IMG/VR virus record: IMGVR_UViG_2690316028_000007
Strand: one strand, 5' to 3'
DNA length: 21,361 nucleotides
Source of the DNA: a virus
Lineage: Duplodnaviria; Heunggongvirae; Uroviricota; Caudoviricetes
Made by a program: the position numbers and the translations under genes. The number at the start of each line of letters is the position of its first letter. Positions within the stretch are counted from its first letter, which is position 1. The notes beneath the pieces were generated by a model, which was not told where the DNA came from, made no database searches, and saw only the letters and a list, made by a program, of their open reading frames with translations. Of the stretch, positions 306 through 14,776 are shown in pieces.

Positions 306-710
306 CTGTATGCGATATCATCTGAAAGTGATGAGTTCCTGTATGCAGGATATTTACAATCGTAAAAACTACGCTATGATGCCCATAGTGTCAGTTTGTA
401 TAAAAATCCTGTTCACGCTAAAGAAAACATTGAGATGCAATTTAATGTTGGTAAACATACCAGCCCAAAAGATTTTATTCAATCTGTTTTTATATGAAGA
501 TATTTCAAGTGAATATTAAGAGCATATAATATTATTATTGCACGCAGCTATTATAATATAACAGATTAGTTTAATGATTTGTTTTTTGTGAGTTAAACAC
601 ATGGTTTTATAGTTGTGATGCAATGAGATTTTCCTTATTGTTGAACTGGCGAATATTGATTTTCCACCTATACTTACCTGGTGTAACCCCAATGATATCA
701 GGTGGATAAT

Positions 711-1424
711 ATGCCATACATATGTTCTATCATTTTGGTGTTGAACTCGTTTGGTGTCCGAATTGGTAAAGAAGATATTTTGTTTAAAAAAGGAAATGCT
801 GTCCTCATTGAATACAATTTAAAAGATCTTTTTTCGTCAATTACAGATCATCTAATGATCGTAGATGTTGAGGAGAAAACAGTTAATGATTTCTTTAAAA
901 ACTACACACTCTCACCTTTTTCTGTAAGAAGGTTTTATCCGTCATACTTGATAGTAGAATGTGAAGATTTTTCATTGTTAAAGAACTTGGTTGCATGCTT
1001 GAATTGTGATAGCAAAACCGTGGATGTAGTTAGAAATCAAATATCACTTGCATGTCTTGCTGTCTTATCTTCAGAGAAAATAGTGCAAAGTTTTTTGTTC
1101 GGAAGTCTTAATAGCTTAGGTTGTAAAGTTAAGGCTATTATTCACTCGGATATCTCAGCGTCATGGAGACTTTGTGATATATCTTCAAGATTATATATGA
1201 GCGAGAGTTTGTTAAAAAGAAAATTAAAAGACGAAGGATTATCGTTTAGTAAATTAATTCTTGAAGAACGAATGATGATGGCGCAAAGATTATTGATCTA
1301 CAGTAACCATACTGTCGGCAAGGTGGCGGGAATATGCGGGTATGACAATGCATCATATTTTGTAAGTGTTTTTAGAGGATATTTTGGTGTGCCTCCGCAC
1401 CAATATTTATCAAGATTTTCTTAG
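711..1424 (+). CDS. AraC/XylS-family transcriptional regulator, AppY/EnvY-like prophage moron
   Basis: C-terminal AraC-type HTH (GYDNASYFVSVFRGYFGVPPHQYL; SESLLKRKLKDEGLSF resembles AppY as I recall it). ATG at 711 is 6 nt after AGGTGG. Very AT-rich gene and flanks, own terminator downstream. Confidence 0.85.
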   Translation: MPYICSIILVLNSFGVRIGKEDILFKKGNAVLIEYNLKDLFSSITDHLMIVDVEEKTVNDFFKNYTLSPFSVRRFYPSYLIVECEDFSLLKNLVACLNCDSKTVDVVRNQISLACLAVLSSEKIVQSFLFGSLNSLGCKVKAIIHSDISASWRLCDISSRLYMSESLLKRKLKDEGLSFSKLILEERMMMAQRLLIYSNHTVGKVAGICGYDNASYFVSVFRGYFGVPPHQYLSRFS

Positions 1425-3735: not shown

Positions 3736-3986
3736 ATTAATATTAAATCGGATTATTTTTAGCGCTGAATGTGAAATTTAAATAAAAAGGACTCTTCCAT
3801 GAGTCAAAATCCTTGAAATCTTAAGGGTAAGATAAAAGGTCATTAGACAGAATGACACGTTTTATTAATAAATAAAGCTATTGTTTCATTCGTGTGTTTT
3901 TCTTTACAAAAGTAATCCTTGCTATGGTTGGTTAATCATGCGTTAATGGTGTTCTGGTTTGTTACAAAATTATCTGAAGCAGTCAT

Positions 3987-3995
3987 TGTTATAAT
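3987..3995 (+). promoter_or_regulatory. Candidate extended -10 element (TGtTATAAT) upstream of cspI
   Basis: TGTTATAAT read directly at 3987-3995, about 100 nt upstream of the cspI start. No good -35 found; csp genes usually have longer 5' UTRs, so the real promoter may lie further upstream. Confidence 0.3.
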
Positions 3996-4098
3996 TTTAT
4001 TATTTGTACCTCTTGAGATTTCCTTGTTGGTTTTTCTCTCTGATATTTTTTTTCGGACCATTCTGCCCAAGGGCTAACTTCTTCAAAAGGTAATAATG

Positions 4099-4311
4099 AT
4101 GTCTAACAAAATGACTGGTTTAGTGAAATGGTTTAACCCTGAAAAAGGTTTTGGTTTCATCACGCCGAAAGATGGTAGCAAAGATGTGTTTGTCCATTTC
4201 TCAGCTATTCAGAGCAACGATTTCAAAACGTTAACTGAGAATCAGGAAGTCGAATTTGGTATTGAGAACGGACCTAAAGGCCCCGCGGCTGTTCATGTTG
4301 TGGCACTTTGA
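4099..4311 (+). CDS. cspI: CspA-family cold-shock protein (70 aa)
   Basis: [38 protein letters not shown]... carries the canonical cold-shock RNP motifs. AAGG upstream. Tandem ATGs at 4096 and 4099. Long AT-rich leader. Adjacent to gnsB as in Qin. Confidence 0.9.
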
Positions 4312-4510
4312 GGTAGAAAATATTACAAACCATATTCACTTTAGATGCCCGTGTTGCCATGGTTCTCAGTATAGAACATCATCTTTTGATGTTTCTGACA
4401 GGAATCCTTTCGGGGCAAAATGTATCTTTTGTAAATCAATGATGATTACATTTGATAATATTTCACAATACTTAAATGTTAGCCGTCTGTCGTTAGATTT
4501 AAGAAAGTGA
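4295..4510 (+). CDS. Candidate zinc-ribbon small protein (CPCC...CIFC) between cspI and its terminator; start uncertain
   Basis: ORF contains [31 protein letters not shown] (CxxC-17-CxxC). The only in-frame ATG (4295) overlaps the cspI 3' end and has a poor SD. Lies upstream of the terminator at 4516-4538, so it would be co-transcribed with cspI. Confidence 0.3.
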
Positions 4511-4515
4511 AAATG

Positions 4516-4538
4516 AAGGCTCCTTCGGGAGCTTTTTT
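4516..4538 (+). terminator. Rho-independent terminator with UUCG tetraloop
   Basis: AAGGCTCC-TTCG-GGAGCTTT stem followed by TTTTTT. Confidence 0.65.
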
Positions 4539-4582
4539 GCTTAGTGTCTAGTCGATGGATACTCACATATTACGGTAACATT

Positions 4583-4813
4583 ATGAAAAAAATAATAGTT
4601 TTTTTTAACTCTGAACCAGCAATGGTAGTGCCAGTGATGACCGGAGTTAACACCATCATGCGTGAATATCCAAATGGCGAAACAACACACCTCACTGTAA
4701 TGGCTGCAGGGTTTCCATCTCTGACCGGAGATCATAAAGTCATTTATGTAGCAGCGGATCGACATGTAACTTCAGAAGAAATTCTGGAAGCAGCAATGAG
4801 ACTCTTGAATTGA
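4583..4813 (+). CDS. Hypothetical small protein (76 aa from ATG 4583; a GTG at 4544 is also possible)
   Basis: ORF MKKIIVFFNSEPAMVVPVMTGVNTIMREYPNGETTHLTVMAAG... Weak SD. Starts right after a terminator, so expression is uncertain. Could be the ynfN-like gene expected between cspI and gnsB. Confidence 0.35.
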   Translation: MKKIIVFFNSEPAMVVPVMTGVNTIMREYPNGETTHLTVMAAGFPSLTGDHKVIYVAADRHVTSEEILEAAMRLLN

Positions 4814-4985
4814 TTTGATTCTAATGCATTGATAATAAATGATAATCATCTTTATCTGTTTGTGTGAAATTTAGACCGTCGTATGTTGATTATTGCGATG
4901 TTTCATCTTATCTTTTATACGTTTGCTCCATATAATTGACACTACTGTGTACCAGGAAAGTCATAACAGACTAAAAGAGGAAATG

Positions 4986-5159
4986 ATGAACATTGAAGAG
5001 TTAAAAACAAAAACAGAAGCAGATATTTCTGAATATATAACAAAAAAAATCATTGAGCTTAAGAAAAAGACCGGGAAAGAAGTTACCAGTATCCAGTTTA
5101 CTGCACGGGAAAAAATGACTGGTCTTGAAAGCTATGATATCAAGATTGATTTAATCTAG
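4986..5159 (+). CDS. gnsB: GnsA/GnsB-family small protein (57 aa)
   Basis: MNIEELKTKTEADISEYITKKIIELKKKTGKEVTSIQFTAREKMTGLESYDIKIDLI closely resembles GnsA/GnsB as I recall them. Length 57 aa. An extra ATG at 4983 is possible. Confidence 0.85.
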   Translation: MNIEELKTKTEADISEYITKKIIELKKKTGKEVTSIQFTAREKMTGLESYDIKIDLI

Positions 5160-5224
5160 TCTGTTTATAGTATTAGCATCAATTTCTCATCAGATGCTAT
5201 TCAACAATACAAATTACCCATAAA

Positions 5225-5248
5225 CCTCGTTTTTACGGGGTTTTGTTA
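5225..5248 (+). terminator. Probable Rho-independent terminator downstream of gnsB
   Basis: CCTCG-TTTTTA-CGGGG (one G-U pair) followed by TTTTGTTATATTT. Confidence 0.45.
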
Positions 5249-5454
5249 TATTTAAACATTACCGAATAGGTATAAATCTCGATTGTCGATGGTATTGGTT
5301 GTGTGACAATACCTAATCTTTCCGGTATGCGTGAAGAGAATACAAACGACAGATTATGTAAGGGAAACGCGCTGAATCTTTCACTCTTTCATGCTGAGTG
5401 ATTTGACGTTATATTTTTAGCCGTAAGTGAAGAGCAAACGCATGGAGCGACAAA

Positions 5455-5661
5455 ATGCATAAAGATCAATACACTGATGCCCCCTCCCAGGAGCAGGTTC
5501 GTGTAAAAACTATGCTTAATAGCACCATTTCGATGGGTTACCCGGATGTTGTAATTGCATGTATAGAACATCAAGTGTCTCTGGAAGCATTCAGGGCAAT
5601 TGAGGCCGCGTTAGTAAAGCACGATAAGAATACGAAGGATTATTCCCTGGTGGTTGACTGA
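5455..5661 (+). CDS. Hypothetical 68-aa protein (position corresponds to ydfO/ynfO of Qin; possibly truncated)
   Basis: ATG at 5455 with GGAG 8 nt upstream. Stops in all three frames shortly after 5661, so it is not a simple frameshift of a longer gene. Confidence 0.5.
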
Positions 5662-5999
5662 TCACCATAACTGCTAACCATTCTGACCATTTCACAAGTG
5701 ACAGAGTCAATATCGTATTCTGTCACTGTCAGGCTAATACAGCAATGCAATTCAACTACAGCAATGCCTCGTATTTAGGTGAATTTACAATATCGTCCAG
5801 TTCGGATGCCGGCTGCATTTCTGAAGATAAGGCATTTCGGTTCTCGTATTTTCCCCTCATGCTCGTCAGTCCTGCGCGTAGTAAGAAACAGGACACTCAC
5901 ACTAATTTGTGTGGGCATGCAGTGATGTCCTTCTGAATTATCCCCATGCCATTATGTAAAGCTCTGTTACAGATGCTCGTCACGGTTGTCAGGCTGTCG

Positions 6000-6120
6000 G
6001 GTCCTCCCAGTGAGGGGCCCTGCCACGGGGCGGGAGCGTCGCGGAAAAAGGCTAGTTTTTGAAATTTTATTCGTCATCACCACTACTGTAATTGATTGGT
6101 ATTACAGTGGTTTTATTTTT
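6000..6120. other. Lambda-like cos site (cosN plus start of cosB) upstream of the Nu1-like gene
   Basis: ACG GGGCGGGAGCGT CGCGGAAAAAGG...GAAATTTTATTCGTCATCAC aligns with the remembered lambda end ACG GGGCGGCGACCT CGCGGGTTTTCG...GAAAATTTTCCG...TTCGTCATAAC. Lies about 190 bp upstream of the small terminase start, as in lambda. Confidence 0.55.
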
Positions 6121-6213
6121 ATGGTGTCGATTCTGATTGTTTTTTGTTCATCGCTAACACCGTTTGCCTAAAGTTGTTCGCAAGATGCATGTTTAAAACA
6201 TTCTGGAGCGGGT

Positions 6214-6708
6214 ATGGATCGAGAGTTAAAAAATCTGACGCTGAATATCAGTCAACTGGCGGCATTGTCAGGTGTACATCGCCAGACTGCTGCGGCAAGG
6301 CTGCAAAATCTACCCGTTGCAGGGGGGCATGAAAGCAACCTCAAGCTTTATCGGGTGGTTGATATTGTGTCGGCATTTCTGGCATTACCACCGCCGGTTG
6401 CAGAAGGCGAAATGGACGCGCATGAGCGCAAAGCCTGGTATCAGTCTGAACGTGAGCGTCTTAAGTTCGAACAGGAAACGGCACAACTCATTCCGGCCAG
6501 TGATGTCAGACGGGAGTTTGCCATCTGGGCAAAAGCGGTCGTGCAGGTGCTGGAGACATTACCGGATATTCTTGAACGTGACTGCGGTCTGCAGCCTGCC
6601 GCTGTGAGCCGTGTTCAGTCCATTATTGATGATCTGCGCGATCAGATAGCCCTGCGGGTGACTGAAGCAGGTGCGGATGATGAGGAGGAATTACAGCAGG
6701 AGGAGTAA
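6214..6708 (+). CDS. nohQ: Terminase small subunit (Nu1-like DNA-packaging protein)
   Basis: N-terminal HTH-like LTLNISQLAALSGVHRQTAAARLQ. GGAG 7 nt upstream. Stop overlaps the next start (TAATG). Position immediately after cos. Confidence 0.85.
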   Translation: MDRELKNLTLNISQLAALSGVHRQTAAARLQNLPVAGGHESNLKLYRVVDIVSAFLALPPPVAEGEMDAHERKAWYQSERERLKFEQETAQLIPASDVRREFAIWAKAVVQVLETLPDILERDCGLQPAAVSRVQSIIDDLRDQIALRVTEAGADDEEELQQEE

Positions 6709-7412
6709 TGCTGAATCAGGAAACCGCAAAGGCAGCACGAACCGATTCAGGTTATATCCTTCGCGCACCGAGACGAATGCGGGTTGCTGATGCCGTTGCT
6801 CAGTATATGCGGGTGCCCATGGGGGCAGGGAACTCAGTCCCGTGGGATCCGCTGGTGGCACCGTATGTTATTGAGCCTATGAACTGCCTGGCCTCGCGTG
6901 AATACGACGCAGTGATATTTGTTGGCCCGGCACGAACCGGCAAGACTATCGGCCTGATTGACGGCTGGGTGATTTACAACGTGATTTGCGATCCTGCGGA
7001 TATGCTGATCATTCAGATGACAGAGGAAAAAGCCCGCGAACACTCCAAAAAACGACTCGCCAGAACGTTTCGCGTCAGCCCGGAAGTGGTCAGTCGCCTG
7101 AGTCCGAACAAAAATGACAACAACGTTTATGACAGAACATTCCTTGCTGGCAACTACCTGAAAATCGGCTGGCCGTCAGTCAATATCATGTCCTCATCAG
7201 ATTATAAATGCGTCGCGCTGACGGATTATGACCGTTTTCCGGAAGATATTGATGGCGAGGGGGATGCCTTCTCTCTTGCCTCAAAACGTACCACCACATT
7301 TATGTCCAGCGGTATGACGCTGGTGGAGAGTTCCCCCGCTGGCCATGCAGATCCCGGCGTTTCGTCAGAAACTGAGCGACGGCTGGTACCAGGTACGCAT
7401 TGCCGGGCGTGA
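6708..7412 (+). pseudogene. Terminase large subunit, N-terminal ATPase fragment (Walker A GPARTGKT), truncated at a deletion junction near 7320-7345
   Basis: Translationally coupled to nohQ. P-loop motif VIFVGPARTGKT. The ORF runs into out-of-frame tail-gene sequence and ends after 234 codons, whereas intact large terminases are about 600-640 aa. Confidence 0.7.
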
Positions 7413-7857
7413 TGCAGGTGAAACCGAATTGTCTGCCCGTCTTAATGAGCCGCTGGCAAATGGTGCCGTGATCCACATCGTGCCGCGTCTGGCGGGAGCT
7501 AAAAGTGGCGGTGTGTTTCAGGTGGTGCTGGGGGCGGCGCTGATTGCGGTGGCATGGTGGAACCCTGTGGGCTGGCTGGGTGCCGCGGCTGTATCGGGCA
7601 TGTATGCGGCAGGGGCCAGTATGATCCTGGGCGGAGTGGCGCAGATGCTGGCACCGAAAGCCAGGACGCCCACGGCAGCAAGTACAGATAACGGCAAACA
7701 GAACACCTATTTCTCCTCACTGGATAACATGGTTGCCCAGGGCAATGTTCTGCCTGTTCTGTACGGGGAAATGCGCGTGGGGTCACGCGTGGTTTCTCAG
7801 GAGATCAGCACGGCAGACGAAGGGGACGGTGGTCAGGTTGTGGTGATTGGTCGCTGA
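7345..7857 (+). pseudogene. C-terminal fragment of lambda tail assembly protein I
   Basis: The tail ...LAPKARTP...DNGKQNTYFSSLDNMVAQGNVLPVLYGEMRVGSRVVSQEISTADEGDGGQVVVIGR matches the remembered lambda gpI C-terminus. Frame opens only at 7318, in a different frame from the terminase fragment. Confidence 0.75.
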
Positions 7858-7917: not shown

Positions 7918-10893
7918 ATGGGTAAAGGCAGCAGTAAGGGGCATACCCCGCGCGAAGCGAAGGACAACCTGAAATCCACGCAGCTGCTGAGTGTGATTGA
8001 TGCCATCAGCGAAGGGCCGGTTGAAGGTCCGGTGGATGGATTAAAAAGCGTGCTGCTGAACAGTACGCCGGTGCTGGACAGTGAGGGGAATACCAATATA
8101 TCCGGCGTCACGGTGGTGTTCCGGGCAGGTGAGCAGGAGCAGACTCCGCCGGAGGGGTTTGAATCCTCCGGCTCCGAGACGGTGCTGGGTACGGAAGTGA
8201 AATATGACACGCCGATCACCCGCACCATTACGTCGGCAAACATCGACCGTCTGCGCTTTACCTTCGGTGTACAGGCACTGGTGGAAACCACCTCAAAGGG
8301 TGACAGGAATCCGTCGGAAGTCCGCCTGCTGGTTCAGATACAGCGTAATGGTGGCTGGGTGACGGAAAAAGACATCACCATTAAGGGCAAAACCACCTCG
8401 CAGTATCTGGCCTCGGTGGTGGTGGATAACCTGCCACCGCGCCCGTTTAATATCCGGATGCGCAGAATGACGCCGGACAGCACCACAGACCAGCTGCAGA
8501 ACAAAACGCTCTGGTCGTCATACACCGAAATCATCGATGTGAAACAGAGCTACCCGAACACGGCACTGGTCGGCGTGCAGGTGGATTCGGAGCAGTTCGG
8601 CAGCCAGCAGGTGAGCCGTAATTATCATCTTCGCGGGCGTATTCTGCAGGTGCCGTCGAATTATAACCCGCAGACGCGGCAATACAGCGGTATCTGGGAC
8701 GGAACGTTTAAACCGGCATACAGCAACAACATGGCCTGGTGTCTGTGGGATATGCTGACCCATCCACGCTACGGCATGGGGAAACGTCTTGGTGCGGCGG
8801 ATGTGGACAAATGGGCGCTGTATGTCATCGGCCAGTACTGCGATCAGTCAGTACCGGACGGCTTTGGCGGCACGGAGCCGCGCATCACCTGTAATGCATA
8901 CCTGACCACACAGCGCAAGGCGTGGGATGTGCTCAGTGATTTCTGCTCGGCGATGCGCTGTATGCCGGTATGGAACGGGCAGACGCTGACGTTCGTGCAG
9001 GACCGACCGTCGGATAAGGTGTGGACCTATAACCGCAGTAATGTGGTGATGCCGGATGATGGCGCGCCGTTCCGCTACAGTTTCAGCGCCCTGAAAGACC
9101 GCCATAATGCCGTTGAGGTGAACTGGATTGACCCGGATAACGGCTGGGAGACGGCGACAGAGCTTGTTGAAGATACGCAGGCCATTGCCCGTTACGGTCG
9201 TAACGTCACGAAGATGGATGCCTTTGGCTGTACCAGCCGGGGGCAGGCGCACCGCGCCGGGCTGTGGCTGATTAAAACGGAACTGCTGGAAACGCAGACC
9301 GTGGACTTCAGCGTGGGTGCGGAAGGGCTTCGCCATGTACCGGGGGATGTCATTGAAATCTGCGATGATGACTATGCGGGTATCAGCACCGGCGGGCGCG
9401 TGCTGGCGGTGAACAGCCAGACCCGGACGCTGACGCTCGACCGTGAAATCACGCTGCCATCCTCCGGTACCACGCTGATAAGCCTGGTTGACGGTCAGGG
9501 TAATCCGGTCAGCGTGGAGGTCCAGTCCGTCACCGACGGCGTGAAGGTGAAAGTGAGCCGTGTTCCTGACGGCGTTGCAGAATACAGCGTGTGGGGGCTG
9601 AAGCTGCCGACGCTGCGCCAGCGCCTGTTCCGCTGCGTGAGTATCCGTGAGAACGATGACGGCACGTATGCCATCACCGCCGTGCAGCATGTACCTTCTG
9701 CCCGTAAGGTGAATGGTAAGGCGCTTTCAGCGGATATAACACTGACGCCGAAAGATATTGGTACGCTTAACTCAACAACAATGTCATTCAGCGGTGGTGC
9801 TGGTTGGTTCAAATTAGCAACGGTAACCATGCCACAGGCGAGTTCTGTTGTTTCAATTACGTTGATTGGTGGCGCGGGATTTAACGTGGGGTCACCTCAA
9901 CAGGCAGGTATATCTGAACTTGTTTTGCGTGCAGGTAATGGTAATCCGAAGGGGATTACTGGTGCTTTATGGCAGCGCACATCGACAGGGTTTACAAATT
10001 TTGCCTGGGTCAATACATCTGGTGATACTTACGATATTTACGTTGCAATCGGAAATTATGCGACTGGTGTAAATATTCAATGGGATTATACCAGTAATGC
10101 CAGCGTGACGATTCATACGTCACCAGCATATTCTGCTAATAAGCCGGAAGGGTTAACGGACGGTACAGTTTATTCACTCTATACGCCATCAGAGCAGTTT
10201 TATCCGCCTGGCGCACCAATCCCGTGGCCATCAGATACCGTTCCGTCTGGCTATGCCCTGATGCAGGGGCAGACTTTTGACAAATCTGCATACCCGAAAC
10301 TTGCAGCCGCTTATCCGTCAGCCGTGATCCCTGATATGCGTGGCTGGACGATTAAGGGCAAACCCGCCAGTGGTCGTGCCGTATTGTCTCAGGAACAGGA
10401 CGGCATTAAATCGCACACCCACAGCGCCAGCGCATCCAGTACGGATTTGGGGACGAAAAACACATCGTCGTTTGATTACGGAACCAAATCCACGAATAAC
10501 ACCGGGGCGCATACCCATAGTATTAGCGGGACTGCAAATAGTGCCGGTGCGCACCAACACAAGAGTTCCGGTGCATTTGGTGGCACGAACACGAGCATTT
10601 TCCCTAATGGTTATACCGCGATTTTAAATCTAAGCGCGGGGATTATGAGCACAACAAGCGGTAGTGGCCAGACTCGTAATGCAGGGAAGACATCATCAGA
10701 TGGTGCTCATACCCACTCGCTGTCCGGCACTGCTGCAAGCGCAGGCGCACATGCACATACTGTCGGTATTGGTGCTCATACGCACTCCGTTGCGATTGGT
10801 TCACATGGACACACCATCACCGTTAACGCTGCTGGTAACGCGGAAAACACCGTCAAAAACATCGCATTTAACTATATTGTGAGGCTTGCATAA
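7918..10893 (+). CDS. stfQ: Chimeric tail fibre: lambda J (host-specificity protein) N-terminal about 597 aa fused in frame to a side-tail-fibre C-terminus with tail-collar-like region and HxH repeats
   Basis: N-terminus [34 protein letters not shown]... matches lambda J as remembered, up to ...AITAVQHVP (about nt 9700). Thereafter the protein diverges and GC content drops. C-terminus has GAHTHS/GAHAHT/GSHGHT repeats and ends [25 protein letters not shown] upstream of the ATG. Confidence 0.85.
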
Positions 10894-11468
10894 TGGCATT
10901 CAGAATGAGTGAACAACCACAGACCATAAAAATTTATAATCTGCTGGCCGGAACTAATGAATTTATTGGTGAAGGTGACGCATATATTCCGCCTCATACA
11001 GGTCTGCCAGCAAACAGTACCGATATTGCACCGCCAGATATTCCGGCAGGCTTCGTGGCTGTTTTCAACAGTGATGAGGCATCGTGGCATCTCGTTGAAG
11101 ATCATCGGGGAAAAACCGTCTATGACGTGGCTTCCGGCGACGCGTTATTTATTTCTGAACTCGGTCCGTTACCGGAAAATGTTACCTGGTTATCGCCGGA
11201 AGGGGAGTTTCAGAAGTGGAACGGCACAGCCTGGGTGAAGGATACGGAAGCAGAAAAACTGTTCCGGATCCGGGAGGCGGAAGAAACAAAAAACAACCTG
11301 ATGCAGGTAGCCAGTGAGCATATTGCGCCGCTTCAGGATGCTGCAGATCTGGAAATTGCAACGGAGGAAGAAATCTCGTTGCTGGAAGCATGGAAAAAGT
11401 ATCGGGTATTGCTGAACCGTGTTGATACGTCAACTGCACAGGATATTGAATGGCCAGCACTGCCGTAG
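10893..11468 (+). CDS. tfaQ: Tail fibre assembly chaperone (lambda Tfa-like)
   Basis: [54 protein letters not shown]... is nearly identical to lambda Tfa as remembered. Start overlaps the stf stop (TAATG). Confidence 0.9.
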
Positions 11469-11565
11469 GGTAAAACATATAAATTCTATAATTAGATGTA
11501 TCTTTCCATTTACGGCAAGGAAGGGGGCTTGGAACACGTAAAGCATCTCACACCGAGATTATTTT

Positions 11566-12156
11566 TTATATGTCAGGTGTCTGAAGTTTTGCTTTGGCTC
11601 TTAAAATGGTTTGCCGCGAGGTTTTGAATTCCCGGGCAATGGCACTTATACTTACACCTGACTTAATTCGTTCGAATACCACCTGTTTCTGTTCTTCATT
11701 TAACACAGGTGGTCGACCAAAACGTTTCCCTGCGCCGCGGGCTCTTACTATCCCGGAATGAGTGCGTTCAAGTAAAAGGTCTCGTTCAAATTCAGCGACT
11801 GCTGAAATTACTTGCATCATCATTTTTCCTGTTGGACTGGTCAGGTCAATGCCACCCAATGCTAAGCAATGCACTCTGATACCTGTTTCGGTCAGTTGTT
11901 CCACTGTTTTCCTGATATCCATTGCATTACAACCAAGGCGATCCAGTTTTGTCACAATCAATTGATCACCACATTTCAGGCGAGCAAGCAACCGGTTAAA
12001 ACCAGGACGCTCACTGGTTGCTGCTGAGCCGCTAATGTGTTCTTCGATTATTTGCTGAGGTTTGATTTTAAAACCTGCACTTTCGATTTCCCGGCGTTGA
12101 TTTTCGGTGGTCTGATCCAGCGTTGATATCCGACAGTAAGCAAAAATTCGAGACAT
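11566..12156 (-). CDS. pinQ: Serine recombinase of the resolvase/invertase family (Pin-like DNA invertase)
   Basis: N-terminal catalytic motif [11 protein letters not shown]-terminal HTH. 196 aa. Position next to tfa as in Qin/Rac. Confidence 0.9.
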
Positions 12157-12473
12157 AGTGAGACTCTATTCGAAATTGGTGTTCATATCATAATGCATCT
12201 CAGAAAATAATTATGATTATTTTTGTGCATATTTGTATGTACACGTTCGAAAATAAACGAATGCGTATGCAACCCCGTAATTTTTGGTGAGACCCAAAAT
12301 CGATTTTGTGAAAAATGGCTTTAACTCGGTTTGTTTTTCGAGTTCCGGGCGGACTCAAGGAAGAAGAATAGTGTTGCGTGTTATTTTAACCAGATTTCAA
12401 GTTGTTTGGACGTGGAAAAGTGGAGCAAAATGTTGTTAAAGTGGAAAAATGATAAAAAAGTAAGTTTATTATA

Positions 12474-12707
12474 TTACATTTTACCATTTAAATTTTGGTT
12501 GTCTTTAAGAACTGATATCGCTGTTTGTAATAATTCTTTGTTATCCAGCCATGATTTTTTCTTTATGTTTCCTTCAATGTAATCAAGCAATGTTCTGGTA
12601 TTAATAGGTCTTCCCTGTTTTGCTACTTCCACTACAGCATCCCCTAGGATAATTCTTACTTCAGGAAGCTGCGCAGGGAACCACTTTAGGGTGTCTTTTG
12701 ATTTCAT
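12474..12707 (-). CDS. ydfK: YdfK/YnaE-family small prophage protein (77 aa), reported as cold-shock induced
   Basis: MKSKDTLKWFPAQLPEVRIILGDAVVEVAKQGRPINTRTLLDYIEGNIKKKSW... ATG at 12707 preceded by AAGGA. The longer 88-aa start has no SD. Long AT-rich upstream region. Confidence 0.85.
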   Translation of the reverse strand: MKSKDTLKWFPAQLPEVRIILGDAVVEVAKQGRPINTRTLLDYIEGNIKKKSWLDNKELLQTAISVLKDNQNLNGKM

Positions 12708-13207
12708 GAAGATATTCCTTAAAATATTATTGATTTTCATTGCGATATTGTATGTCTGATTCAGGATATGTTGACTTATACATCGGTTTTGTCTGGGTTA
12801 TTGGATATGCCAATCCCTAATTTTATTAGGGCATGACTAAAAATGCTGAATATGATAAGGAGAGAAGTGATTATCAGTATGCTGTTCATATAGCCTCGAA
12901 TTAGTAATGTGTTATATATGATATAGTTGACAATTTTTATCTTGGGTGTTTTTAAAGTTCGTAGATAAACATTGTCGTTTCAGGTATACAGGAATGCTAG
13001 CAGGTGGCAGCAAAAATCAGGCGGTTTATGGCGCAAGCTGAAGCGGCAACTGCAAACTATCTTATGCAGAGACTCTACACGGATTGGGTTTAAAAGTATA
13101 CATAGATAACAGTTTTTATCTGAAAAAGAAAAATATCAAGGTGATATAGCCTATATGCCTTTGATGCGGAGGAATGACTGTGATGGGAGTGATGTATCTG
13201 AATAGTT

Positions 13208-13247
13208 GAAAAACCGCAGACACGCCTTATGCAAGAACGTGCTGCGG
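13208..13247 (-). terminator. Candidate minus-strand Rho-independent terminator about 250 bp inside the prophage end (possible tI/sib analogue)
   Basis: CCGCAG(A)CACG ... CGTG-CTGCGG imperfect 10-bp stem with 13-nt loop, followed on the minus strand by TTTTTCAAC. Confidence 0.4.
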
Positions 13248-13492
13248 TTGGCTGGTAAATTTTTCGATAGTGTGAGTATTGAATGATTTCCAGCCGTTCT
13301 TGATTTTACGCATAAATCCATGAAAAAACTACTTATCTGTTGGGGAGTTTTTTTGGGGCATATATGGGACAGAAATAGGCCCCAGATAGACACTGAGATC
13401 GAACTTAGGATGCTTTTTAAAAAATGCAACTATCTGAAAAAACCTAGAAAACGCCAAGGAAACCACAGGATGGGAAAAAACACCTGTGAATT

Positions 13493-14776
13493 ATGGATTT
13501 CCAGTTATATTCGCTCGGCGCAGCGTTAGTGTTTCATGAAATATTTTTTCCTGAATCATCAACGGCAATGGCGTTAATTCTGGCAATGGGAACCTATGGT
13601 GCAGGTTATGTGGCGCGTATTGTCGGAGCATTTATTTTCGGCAAAATGGGCGACAGAATAGGGCGTAAAAAAGTGCTCTTTATTACCATCACCATGATGG
13701 GGATCTGTACCACCTTAATTGGAGTGTTACCGACCTATGCACAGATTGGTGTTTTTGCCCCCATCTTGCTGGTGACGCTGCGTATTATTCAGGGATTGGG
13801 TGCAGGTGCGGAAATTTCCGGTGCCGGTACGATGCTGGCGGAATATGCGCCAAAAGGTAAGCGCGGAATTATCTCCTCATTTGTGGCTATGGGAACTAAC
13901 TGCGGAACCTTAAGCGCAACGGCAATCTGGGCCTTTATGTTCTTCATTCTCAGTAAAGAGGAACTGCTGGCGTGGGGATGGCGTATACCGTTCCTGGCGA
14001 GCGTTGTCGTGATGGTCTTTGCTATCTGGTTACGTATGAATCTGAAAGAAAGCCCGGTCTTTGAGAAGGTTAACGACAGCAACCAACCGACAGCAAAACC
14101 TGCACCTGCTGGTAGCATGTTCCAGAGCAAATCCTTCTGGCTGGCAACAGGGCTGCGTTTTGGTCAGGCGGGTAACTCCGGTTTAATTCAGACTTTCCTT
14201 GCAGGCTATTTAGTACAGACGTTATTGTTTAACAAAGCAATTCCAACAGATGCATTGATGATCAGTTCGATTCTCGGCTTTATGACCATTCCGTTCCTTG
14301 GTTGGTTATCCGATAAAATTGGTCGCCGGATCCCGTATATTATTATGAATACCTCTGCGATTGTGCTGGCGTGGCCAATGCTTTCTATCATCGTAGATAA
14401 AAGCTATGCCCCGAGCACCATTATGGTTGCACTGATTGTGATTCATAACTGTGCGGTGCTGGGATTATTTGCTCTGGAAAACATTACCATGGCAGAAATG
14501 TTCGGCTGTAAAAACCGCTTTACCCGGATGGCTATTTCAAAAGAAATTGGTGGTCTTATCGCTTCCGGTTTTGGTCCTATCCTGGCGGGTATTTTCTGCA
14601 CCATGACGGAATCCTGGTATCCGATCGCCATTATGATCATGGCATATTCAGTAATTGGTTTAATCTCTGCGCTGAAAATGCCAGAGGTGAAAGACCGTGA
14701 TTTAAGTGCGCTGGAAGACGCTGCGGAAGATCAACCGCGTGTTGTAAGAGCTGCGCAACCTTCCAGAAGTCTGTAA
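13493..14776 (+). CDS. ydfJ: MFS transporter of the metabolite:H+ symporter family (ProP/ShiA-like); reading frame opens only at 13490, consistent with loss of about 40 N-terminal residues at the prophage junction
   Basis: 427-aa ORF with MFS signatures (GKMGDRIGRKKVL, 12-TM-like hydrophobic profile). An in-frame TGA sits immediately upstream at 13487-13489. Starts at a motif (DFQLY) that in relatives lies about 45 aa into the protein. Confidence 0.8.
   Translation: MDFQLYSLGAALVFHEIFFPESSTAMALILAMGTYGAGYVARIVGAFIFGKMGDRIGRKKVLFITITMMGICTTLIGVLPTYAQIGVFAPILLVTLRIIQGLGAGAEISGAGTMLAEYAPKGKRGIISSFVAMGTNCGTLSATAIWAFMFFILSKEELLAWGWRIPFLASVVVMVFAIWLRMNLKESPVFEKVNDSNQPTAKPAPAGSMFQSKSFWLATGLRFGQAGNSGLIQTFLAGYLVQTLLFNKAIPTDALMISSILGFMTIPFLGWLSDKIGRRIPYIIMNTSAIVLAWPMLSIIVDKSYAPSTIMVALIVIHNCAVLGLFALENITMAEMFGCKNRFTRMAISKEIGGLIASGFGPILAGIFCTMTESWYPIAIMIMAYSVIGLISALKMPEVKDRDLSALEDAAEDQPRVVRAAQPSRSL

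What the first reader, a model, noticed from the sequence alone, without database searches (positions are those of the whole stretch)
10410..10815. Seven to eight tandem HxH motifs (GAHTHS-like) in the tail-fibre C-terminus
The C-terminal about 130 residues contain repeated H-T-H, H-Q-H, H-A-H and H-G-H motifs spaced by Gly/Ser/Ala-rich linkers, preceded by a tail-collar-like segment ([34 protein letters not shown]). HxH repeats coordinate iron in the T4 long-tail-fibre tip. Their presence suggests a metal-stabilised trimeric needle. At DNA level these are near-repeats that could promote slippage or recombination.
Basis: partly seen in the sequence, partly recalled or inferred. Interest (0 to 1): 0.45.

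Follow-up and report, generated by a model that had tools for sequence, protein, structure and literature searches.

The report
Known iron-binding tail-fibre tip, prophage remnant
The seven His-x-His motifs are real and match one-for-one the seven iron-binding sites of the solved phage T4 gp37 / lambda Stf tail-fibre tip, so this is an ordinary, well-known receptor-binding module that here sits in a deletion-scarred, defective Qin-like prophage of E. coli.

Summary
ORF 7918-10893 (+, 991 aa) has exactly seven HxH motifs (aa 833-965, nt 10414-10812) and none elsewhere; shuffles never give seven. The last 244 residues align to the crystallised T4 gp37 tip (PDB 2XGF, E = 4.5e-82). All seven HxH fall on gp37's seven HxH, with no gaps in either needle arm. 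A Pfam Collar domain precedes them and a Tfa chaperone gene follows. Variation among homologues is confined to the roughly 45 residues between HxH3 and HxH4, the receptor-binding head. The gp37/lambda Stf kinship and the HxH-iron needle are textbook knowledge, so novelty is nil.

The DNA-repeat claim is weak: TRF finds nothing, the longest exact repeat is 12 nt, and 115 of 120 close homologues keep seven motifs.

New context: the ORF is not an intact fibre gene. A 4.1-kb deletion at a 5-nt microhomology fused J (aa 1-593) in frame to the Stf C-terminus, in a prophage that has lost its head and tail-shaft genes.

A side result concerns more distant homologues. Needle units are gained and lost in matched pairs on the two arms, which fits a fold-back needle.

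The parts
7918..10893 (+). 991-aa ORF, an in-frame fusion of the lambda-J-type N-terminus (aa 1-593) with the Stf-type C-terminus (aa 594-991)
   Evidence: ORF list. Pfam FNIII-A_GpJ aa 86-207, Phage-tail_3 aa 330-498 and Collar aa 765-812. The first 1778 nt are 96-98% identical to J genes of lambdoid phages and the match stops there. The exact protein is seen on 9 public contigs, and the three places shown have the same gene context.
9691..9695 (+). Deletion junction: 5-nt microhomology GTACC joining J codon ~593 to stf codon ~589
   Evidence: Comparison with the intact J-lom-stf-tfaQ-pinQ locus of E. coli ECNB21-M121 (L006). Window 8328-9695 matches L006 1-1368, and window 9691-12200 matches L006 5500-8009 at 99.96%. 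About 4136 bp are missing.
9696..10209 (+). Remaining distal shaft segment of Stf (aa 594-764)
   Evidence: Collinear with the Stf of L006 and with N-terminally shorter E. coli homologues such as P0017.
10210..10353 (+). Collar domain (aa 765-812)
   Evidence: Pfam PF07484, E = 1.5e-11. 82% identical to the gp37 collar over aa 762-832.
10414..10560 (+). Ascending needle arm (aa 833-881): HxH1, two DxGTKxTxxx decapeptides, HxH2, a 14-aa unit, HxH3
   Evidence: 73% identical to gp37 883-931 with no gaps. HxH at nt 10414-10422, 10510-10518 and 10552-10560. There is a weak Pfam Phage_fiber (PF03335) match at aa 860-873.
10561..10707 (+). Head (tip) domain, the hypervariable presumed receptor-binding part (aa 882-930; variable core aa 882-926)
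   Evidence: Only 18% identical to gp37, with indels. Mean identity to 29 close homologues is 0.24 here, against 0.86-0.97 in the flanks. In E. coli genomes and phages many matches split into two pieces that skip this part.
10708..10890 (+). Descending needle arm (aa 931-991): HxH4, a 14-aa unit, HxH5, then HxH6 and HxH7 at 9-aa spacing, then the conserved C-terminus ...[11 protein letters not shown]
   Evidence: 77% identical to gp37 966-1026 with no gaps. HxH at nt 10708-10716, 10750-10758, 10777-10785 and 10804-10812.
10893..11468 (+). Tail fibre assembly protein (TfaQ-type chaperone), 191 aa, start overlapping the stf stop codon
   Evidence: Pfam Caudo_TAP PF02413, E = 3.6e-43. Annotated tfaQ in matching E. 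coli genomes.
11566..12156 (-). PinQ-type serine recombinase (context only; no invertible segment detected)
   Evidence: Pfam Resolvase plus HTH_7. Annotated pinQ. No inverted repeat of 16 nt or more brackets stf/tfa.

Best explanation
Nt 10414-10812 encode the needle of a T4-gp37 / lambda-Stf-type receptor-binding tip.

By homology with the solved gp37 tip, three chains run from the collar domain up an ascending arm (HxH1-3). They form a small variable head that contacts the receptor (OmpC/LPS for T4 and lambda; unknown for this allele). They then run back down a descending arm (HxH4-7), giving a six-stranded antiparallel needle.

Each HxH, taken three times around the axis, supplies six imidazoles that coordinate one buried metal ion octahedrally. 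In gp37 that ion is iron. Seven ions would therefore be stacked along the axis, keeping the three chains in register and stiffening the needle.

Folding needs the Tfa chaperone encoded immediately downstream.

What is shown here: the motifs, the homology, the conservation, the position of variability and the chaperone gene. What is inferred from gp37: trimer geometry, metal identity and receptor binding.

In this genome the module is a relic. A 4.1-kb microhomology deletion fused it in frame to the N-terminal 593 residues of J, in a Qin-like prophage that has lost its head and tail-shaft genes. It most likely makes no working fibre and persists as a nearly undamaged cassette.
For: 1. Homology to 2XGF at E = 4.5e-82, with all seven HxH in register and no indels in either arm.
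2. Literature on gp37. It has seven Fe atoms along the needle, and H929 and H931, which correspond to H879 and H881 here, are essential (PMC6957217). The HxH sites in 2XGF, P2 gpV and pyocin fibres are octahedral Fe sites (PMC6116203). The needle is six-stranded and antiparallel with a head domain, and about 215 C-terminal residues are shared by more than 200 phages (PMC9659904). The Ur-lambda Stf distal domain is structurally homologous to gp37 (PMC12617516). The T4 g37/g38 3' part derives from lambda-like sequence (PMC3157838).
3. Histidine conservation. 115 of 120 close homologues have seven HxH. In a 30-sequence alignment of the window and 29 close homologues, nine of the 14 needle histidines are invariant and the other five are conserved in at least 90%.
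4. Variability is confined to the segment between HxH3 and HxH4.
5. Arm-to-arm covariation across 176 distinct modules. The HxH1-HxH2 spacing of 22/32/42/52/62 goes with 1/2/3/4/5 trailing 9-aa spacings in 169 cases, plus two that are off by one residue (41 with 3). The 14-aa units occur in equal numbers on the two arms: 112 with one on each, 57 with none, 1 with two on each. This is what a fold-back needle requires.
6. A Collar domain lies upstream and Caudo_TAP downstream.
7. Relic status. terL N-fragment, I C-fragment, J N-fragment, and no head or tail-tube genes. The deletion junction is mapped against an intact locus. Many other Stf C-termini are fused to terminase, portal, Lom or J fragments at different junctions.
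Against: No direct structural or metal evidence exists for this protein. The AF2 monomer model was uninformative (pLDDT 45) and a trimer could not be modelled. Metal identity cannot be read from sequence: T4 gp12's HxH site was crystallised with Zn (PMC6116203). The head domain differs from gp37's (18% identity, 49 against 34 residues), so receptor specificity is unknown. The ORF is intact, and its Stf part differs at 1 of 2510 nt from an intact prophage's copy, so loss of function of the module itself is not demonstrated, only loss of its virion context.
Confidence: 0.9

Rival explanations
1. The HxH units matter mainly at the DNA level. As near-repeats they would drive slippage or unequal recombination that changes unit number and host range.
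For: Unit number does vary in the wider family, from 4 to 10 HxH. Lambda-type P0118 has one extra decapeptide plus one extra GIGAHQHPV unit. The title of Tetart et al. 1996, cited in PMC6957217 and PMC3157838, reports that duplications of a small gp37 domain expand T4 host range. The conserved needle arms flank the variable head like recombination handles.
Against: TRF finds no tandem repeat. The longest exact direct repeat is 12 nt and the best imperfect one is 18 nt. Codon usage differs between units, whose 21-nt cores are 43-81% identical. Among 120 close homologues 115 keep seven motifs, and the exceptions are two point losses (P0076, P0084), one partial sequence that ends just after HxH7 (P0021), one non-unit deletion (P0026) and the lambda-type allele. 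The repeats are therefore a protein-level feature, and unit changes are rare evolutionary events rather than a strain-level hot spot.
Confidence: 0.1
2. The J(1-593)::Stf(589-987) chimera is a working protein: a J hub carrying a gp37-like needle in place of the LamB-binding central fibre, usable by a helper lambdoid phage.
For: The fusion is in frame and the ORF is intact. Both parents are trimers according to the literature. tfa is intact. The same protein occurs on 9 contigs.
Against: The prophage lacks head, tail-tube, tape-measure and other tip genes. The junction is a 5-nt microhomology deletion scar. Other J::Stf fusions have unrelated junctions and often truncated J pieces, alongside fusions to terminase, portal and Lom, which is the pattern of random decay. 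An in-frame outcome is expected by chance in one of three deletions.
Confidence: 0.04
3. The histidine pairs are a compositional accident of a low-complexity Gly/Ser/Ala/His-rich tail and have no structural role.
For: The segment is compositionally biased.
Against: Seven HxH were never reached in 20,000 shuffles. Each motif is conserved in position across lambdoid, P2-like and T4-like fibres and matches crystallographic Fe ligands.
Confidence: 0.01

Closest known systems
T4 gp37 long-tail-fibre receptor-binding tip (PDB 2XGF, residues 785-1026)
   Same: Collar domain, ascending arm with three HxH, head, and descending arm with four HxH ending ...[11 protein letters not shown]. The collar is 82% identical and the needle arms 73% and 77%, with no gaps and all seven HxH in register. 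A chaperone gene follows the fibre gene.
   Different: The head domain is unrelated in sequence (18% identity) and longer, 49 against 34 residues. The chaperone is a lambda-type Tfa (Caudo_TAP). Here the module is attached to a J fragment, not to a gp37 shaft.
Lambda (Ur-lambda) side tail fibre Stf with Tfa, and E. coli K-12 Qin prophage stfQ-tfaQ-pinQ
   Same: Same family and same gene order, stf-tfa-pin-ydfK-ydfJ. K-12-derived laboratory strains carry the same head allele at 97.7% DNA identity over 698 nt, annotated as a partial 'phage tail protein' next to tfaQ and pinQ. An intact prophage at the same chromosomal site has J-lom-stf-tfaQ-pinQ, with its stf 3' end, tfaQ and pinQ 99.96% identical to the window.
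   Different: Lambda-type Stf (P0118-like) has eight HxH, with one extra decapeptide plus one extra nonapeptide unit, and a different head. In K-12 the stf remnant has no J part. Here the 5' partner is J.
Single-site HxH iron centres of P2 gpV / phi92 / R2-pyocin central spikes and R-type pyocin fibre shafts
   Same: The same HxH-times-three octahedral Fe site on a trimer axis (PMC6116203).
   Different: Those proteins carry one site in an unrelated fold. Here seven sites are stacked in a fold-back needle. No sequence homology to them was found in the PDB search.

Membership tests
T4 gp37 / lambda Stf receptor-binding tip family | Significant sequence homology to the crystallised gp37 tip over collar, needle and C-terminus | tested here: met
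   phmmer against PDB: 2xgf_A, E = 4.5e-82, query 154-397 aligned to chain 15-242.
T4 gp37 / lambda Stf receptor-binding tip family | HxH motifs in register with the seven iron-coordinating HxH of gp37 | tested here: met
   One-to-one correspondence of 7 of 7 motifs with no indels in the arms. H879/H881 correspond to gp37 H929/H931, named as Fe ligands in PMC6957217.
T4 gp37 / lambda Stf receptor-binding tip family | Collar domain immediately N-terminal to the needle | tested here: met
   Pfam PF07484, aa 765-812, 44.5 bits against a cut-off of 24.
T4 gp37 / lambda Stf receptor-binding tip family | Hypervariable head between the two needle arms, with conserved arms | tested here: met
   Mean identity to homologues is 0.24 in aa 882-926, against 0.86-0.97 in the flanks. 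DNA matches split in two around it.
T4 gp37 / lambda Stf receptor-binding tip family | Cognate assembly chaperone gene (Tfa / gp38 type) directly downstream | tested here: met
   ORF 10893-11468, Caudo_TAP, E = 3.6e-43.
T4 gp37 / lambda Stf receptor-binding tip family | Homotrimer with metal ions on the three-fold axis | not testable with these tools
   Only monomer AF2 was available and it gave pLDDT 45. Indirect support comes from matched unit numbers on the two arms across the family.
Complete lambdoid side tail fibre gene (stf) | N-terminal virion-attachment domain and full shaft | tested here: not met
   The first ~588 codons of stf are deleted and replaced by J codons 1-593. Intact Stf proteins start MAVKISGVLKDG....
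Lambda gpJ tip attachment / host specificity protein | Full-length J with C-terminal central fibre and receptor-binding domain | tested here: not met
   J similarity stops at nt 1778 of the ORF, and only the N-terminal Pfam domains are present.
Invertible tail-fibre host-range switch (Mu Gin / P1 Cin / e14 Pin type) | Inverted crossover sites bracketing alternative fibre C-termini next to the invertase gene | tested here: not met
   A resolvase-family recombinase is adjacent. The only inverted repeat of 16 nt or more in 9600-13500 is a 20-nt, 80% pair between pin and ydfK, and there is no second stf/tfa copy in the window.

The most novel reading that the evidence does not exclude
The in-frame J(1-593)::Stf(589-987) protein could be a usable chimeric central fibre. 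When a lambdoid phage superinfects or a resident one is induced, the protein might be built into that phage's tail tip, with TfaQ folding the needle. That would give particles a gp37-like, metal-stacked needle in place of the LamB-binding J fibre. A milder novel reading is that the paired-unit rule seen across the family (decapeptide on the way up matched with an HxH nonapeptide on the way down; 14-aa units in matched pairs) is an undescribed length ruler for these needles.
Probability: 0.05. Interest if true: 0.45.

Novelty: already known. Interest (0 to 1): 0.1.

Why it matters
It matters little as a discovery. The gp37/Stf HxH needle has been structurally solved, and its spread across lambdoid, P2-like and T4-like phages is well documented. 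The practical value is in annotation. The 991-aa ORF should not be read as a tail fibre or as a host-specificity protein J, because it is a J'::'stf deletion fusion in a defective Qin-like prophage. The nearly undamaged tip-plus-tfa cassette is the kind of sequence that infecting phages could pick up by recombination. The matched-pair rule for needle units could also guide the design of chimeric fibres of altered length.

Tried and rejected
- AF2 prediction of the C-terminal 233 aa with a 30-sequence alignment gave pLDDT 45 and pTM 0.17. This is useless for an obligate intertwined trimer, so no fold search was run, and a trimer could not be submitted.
- The primary structure paper (Bartual et al. 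2010, PMC2996694) is not held. Its content is cited second-hand from PMC6957217, PMC6116203 and PMC9659904.
- A literature search for 'GXHXH' with 'tail fiber' found nothing, and 'His box' did not occur in any listed paper of that search. The recombination role of His boxes therefore rests on paper titles and my own recollection.
- Tandem Repeats Finder found no array.
- A search for an invertible segment around stf/tfa next to the pin-like gene found none.
- I considered that J::Stf fusions form a functional class. I rejected this because the junctions differ, many J pieces are truncated, and Stf tips are equally found fused to terminase, portal and Lom fragments.
- I considered that the window lies outside E. 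coli, because only 8 of 5426 complete genomes cover 80% or more of the fusion ORF. The flanking genes and near-identical segments place it at the E. coli Qin site.
Full report
**1. What is in the sequence**

The flagged stretch lies at the 3' end of ORF 7918-10893 (+), 991 aa. A regular-expression scan finds exactly seven HxH motifs and none elsewhere in the protein:

| Motif | Sequence | Residues (His-x-His) | Nucleotides |
|---|---|---|---|
| HxH1 | SHTHS | 833-835 | 10414-10422 |
| HxH2 | GAHTHS | 865-867 | 10510-10518 |
| HxH3 | GAHQHK | 879-881 | 10552-10560 |
| HxH4 | GAHTHS | 931-933 | 10708-10716 |
| HxH5 | GAHAHT | 945-947 | 10750-10758 |
| HxH6 | GAHTHS | 954-956 | 10777-10785 |
| HxH7 | GSHGHT | 963-965 | 10804-10812 |

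All 14 histidines of the last 165 residues belong to these motifs. Shuffling that segment 20,000 times gave a mean of 1.1 motifs and never seven. "Seven to eight" is seven. The preceding [12 protein letters not shown]... segment is a genuine Pfam Collar domain (PF07484, aa 765-812, E = 1.5e-11).

**2. What it is**

A phmmer search of the last 397 residues against all PDB sequences hits one structure overwhelmingly. [quoted passage not shown]

I renumbered the alignment to gp37 coordinates:

- The seven HxH fall exactly on gp37 H883/885, H915/917, H929/931, H966/968, H980/982, H989/991 and H998/1000.
- The collar is 82% identical.
- The arm from HxH1 to HxH3 is 73% identical with no gaps.
- The arm from HxH4 to the C-terminus is 77% identical with no gaps.
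- The segment between HxH3 and HxH4 is only 18% identical and differs in length.

The literature held in the library agrees with this reading:

- PMC6957217 states that seven coordinated iron atoms lie along the gp37 needle, and that H929 and H931 are iron-binding histidines whose alanine substitution abolishes plaque formation.
- PMC6116203 describes the octahedral six-histidine Fe site made by HxH from three chains in 2XGF and in several spike and fibre proteins.
- PMC9659904 describes the six-stranded antiparallel needle with a head that holds the receptor-binding region, and a family of about 215 C-terminal residues shared by more than 200 phages, including Ur-lambda.
- PMC12617516 finds the Ur-lambda Stf distal domain structurally homologous to gp37.
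- PMC3157838 recalls that the 3' part of T4 g37 and g38 came from lambda-like sequence, a kinship noticed in 1983.

The gene that follows, 10893-11468, is a Caudo_TAP tail fibre assembly protein (E = 3.6e-43). That is the chaperone class this family needs.

**3. Conservation test**

- Of 120 close homologues (71-100% identity), 115 have seven HxH.
- The five exceptions are as follows. P0076 has AHTY and P0084 has ANTH, both point losses. P0021 is a partial sequence that ends just after HxH7. P0026 has an internal deletion that removes HxH2 and HxH3. P0118 is a lambda-type allele with eight motifs.
- In a 30-sequence alignment of the window and 29 close homologues, nine of the 14 needle histidines are invariant and the other five are conserved in at least 90%.
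- The per-column profile shows mean identity to the window of 0.94 (collar), 0.86 (ascending arm), 0.24 (aa 882-926) and 0.97 (descending arm).

Variation is therefore confined to the head, as expected for a receptor-binding tip on a conserved scaffold.

At the DNA level the same picture appears:

- 3907 of 5426 complete E. coli genomes have a match, and 994 cover 80% or more of the query.
- In the rows listed, most of the remaining matches are in two pieces that skip the head.
- Phage matches include lambdoid, P2-like (Peduovirus), T4-like (Tequatrovirus) and FelixO1-like genomes.

**4. Unit-number variation and an arm-to-arm rule**

An exhaustive HMMER search of 1.84 billion cluster representatives gave 1746 hits at E <= 0.001. 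I analysed 176 distinct complete C-terminal modules from the two searches. The HxH count ranges from 4 to 10, but in a quantised way.

*Decapeptide and nonapeptide units.* The spacing between HxH1 and HxH2 steps by one DxGTKxTxxx decapeptide at a time. It goes together with the number of 9-residue HxH spacings at the C-terminal end:

| HxH1-HxH2 spacing (aa) | Trailing 9-aa spacings |
|---|---|
| 22 | 1 |
| 32 | 2 |
| 42 | 3 |
| 52 | 4 |
| 62 | 5 |

169 of the 176 modules fit this table exactly, and two more are off by one residue (spacing 41 with three trailing 9-aa spacings). The five remaining exceptions have other spacings, which may reflect point-mutated motifs; these were not checked individually.

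*14-residue units.* The 14-residue HxH units (the Pfam PF03335 repeat) occur in equal numbers before and after the head. There are 112 modules with one on each side, 57 with none, and 1 with two on each side.

The window has two decapeptides, two trailing 9-aa spacings and one 14-aa unit on each arm. Matched gain and loss on the two arms is what a chain that runs up to a head and folds back in register must do. I take it as independent sequence-level support for the fold-back needle across the family, since no trimer could be modelled. The sequences are not phylogenetically independent, and I could not establish whether this rule has been described before.

**5. The DNA-repeat idea**

- Tandem Repeats Finder reports nothing in 10200-10950.
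- The best direct repeat is 18 nt with one mismatch, 10701-10718 against 10770-10787.
- The longest exact repeat is 12 nt.
- The 21-nt cores of the seven units are 43-81% identical because codon choice differs.

Together with the stability of the count among close relatives, this argues that the repeats are a protein-level feature. Unit gain or loss is then a rare evolutionary event rather than a strain-level hot spot. There is a literature precedent for duplications in gp37 that expand host range (Tetart et al. 1996, known to me only by title), so the idea is not absurd. It is simply not supported for this locus.

**6. Context: a deletion scar in a dead prophage**

The N-terminal 593 residues are lambda-J-type. 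They carry Pfam FNIII-A_GpJ and Phage-tail_3 and are 96-98% identical in DNA to J of many lambdoid phages over nt 1-1778 of the ORF, where the match stops.

The window carries the following:

- an AraC-like gene, holin, DUF1327, lysozyme and Rz-like genes, a cold-shock gene and gnsB;
- a small terminase-like DUF1441 gene;
- a 234-aa N-terminal fragment of the large terminase;
- a C-terminal fragment of tail protein I;
- the J::Stf ORF, tfa, a pinQ-type recombinase and ydfK;
- the chromosomal gene ydfJ, followed by ORFs whose sizes match ydfI, ydfH, ydfG and dcp; this naming of the last four rests on size and gene order, with ydfI also annotated at the same place in L006.

No head, tail-tube or tape-measure genes remain.

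E. coli strain ECNB21-M121 has, at the same chromosomal site, an intact J-lom-stf (987 aa)-tfaQ-pinQ-ydfK-ynfT-ydfJ arrangement. Window 9691-12200 is 99.96% identical to its stf 3' part, tfaQ and pinQ. Window 8328-9695 matches its J.

The two matches overlap by the pentanucleotide GTACC, which is present in both parents. A deletion of about 4136 bp at this microhomology therefore joined J codon ~593 to stf codon ~589 in frame.

The exact 991-aa protein is on nine public contigs, and the three places shown have the same gene context. Only 8 of 5426 complete genomes cover 80% or more of the fusion ORF, and in strain H3 the two halves are annotated pseudogenes.

Many other Stf tips in the protein databases are fused to terminase, portal, Lom, tape-measure or differently truncated J fragments. 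This is the signature of random decay. K-12-derived laboratory strains carry the same head allele (97.7% over 698 nt) as a partial gene next to tfaQ and pinQ. No invertible segment accompanies the recombinase.

**7. Mechanism, with basis marked**

*Shown here:* seven conserved HxH in register with gp37, a collar before them, a variable head between the arms, a chaperone gene after them, and matched arm units across the family.

*Inferred from the gp37 structure and the cited papers:*

- Three chains form a six-stranded needle.
- Each HxH triplet cages one Fe ion octahedrally, giving seven ions per fibre tip. These register and stiffen the chains.
- The head binds an outer-membrane receptor.

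*Unknown:* the metal actually bound (Zn was seen in T4 gp12's HxH site), the receptor of this head allele, and whether the fusion ORF is expressed.

**8. Verdict**

The feature is a textbook one, and this allele is essentially that of the K-12 Qin remnant, so novelty is "already known" and interest is low. The useful corrections are three:

- There are seven motifs, not eight.
- The DNA-repeat claim is weak.
- The "tail fibre" is a J'::'stf deletion fusion in a defective prophage.

Noticed in passing
window 9691-9695 (junction) within ORF 7918-10893: The 991-aa ORF is an in-frame J(1-593)::Stf(589-987) fusion. It was made by a ~4136-bp deletion at a 5-nt GTACC microhomology, relative to an intact J-lom-stf locus at the same chromosomal site in E. 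coli ECNB21-M121.
   Followed up: yes
window 6708-7857: A 234-aa N-terminal fragment of the large terminase (GpA_ATPase profile positions 2-186 of 247) overlaps an ORF that begins inside tail protein I (Lambda_tail_I positions 38-83 of 83). This looks like a second large deletion that removed all head and tail-shaft genes. The junction was not mapped.
   Followed up: partly
homologues P0121-P0264 and P0001-P0120; window aa 833-965: Across 176 distinct gp37/Stf-type tips, needle units change in matched pairs. N DxGTKxTxxx decapeptides on the ascending arm go with N 9-aa HxH spacings on the descending arm (169 exact fits plus two off by one residue). The 14-aa HxH units occur in equal number on both arms. 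Whether this has been published could not be checked.
   Followed up: partly
window 11566-12156 (-): A PinQ-type serine recombinase sits next to stf-tfa, but no inverted crossover sites or alternative fibre C-termini are present. It is an orphan invertase homologue, as at the K-12 Qin locus.
   Followed up: partly
protein search results: Stf C-terminal tips in E. coli are found fused to fragments of terminase large and small subunits, portal, Lom, and J at many different junctions. Some sources name such proteins 'terminase' or 'portal protein', which is an annotation hazard created by prophage decay.
   Followed up: partly
window 702-1424 (+): A 240-aa AraC-family regulator ORF (HTH_18 / HTH_AraC) lies just upstream of the holin-lysozyme-Rz block of the prophage remnant. 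It may be a cargo gene.
   Followed up: no
window 3900-6200: About 2.3 kb of short ORFs lie between the lysis genes and the small terminase-like gene. They include a CspI-like cold-shock protein (4096-4311) and small-protein genes such as gnsB, with the same gene order as K-12 Qin.
   Followed up: no
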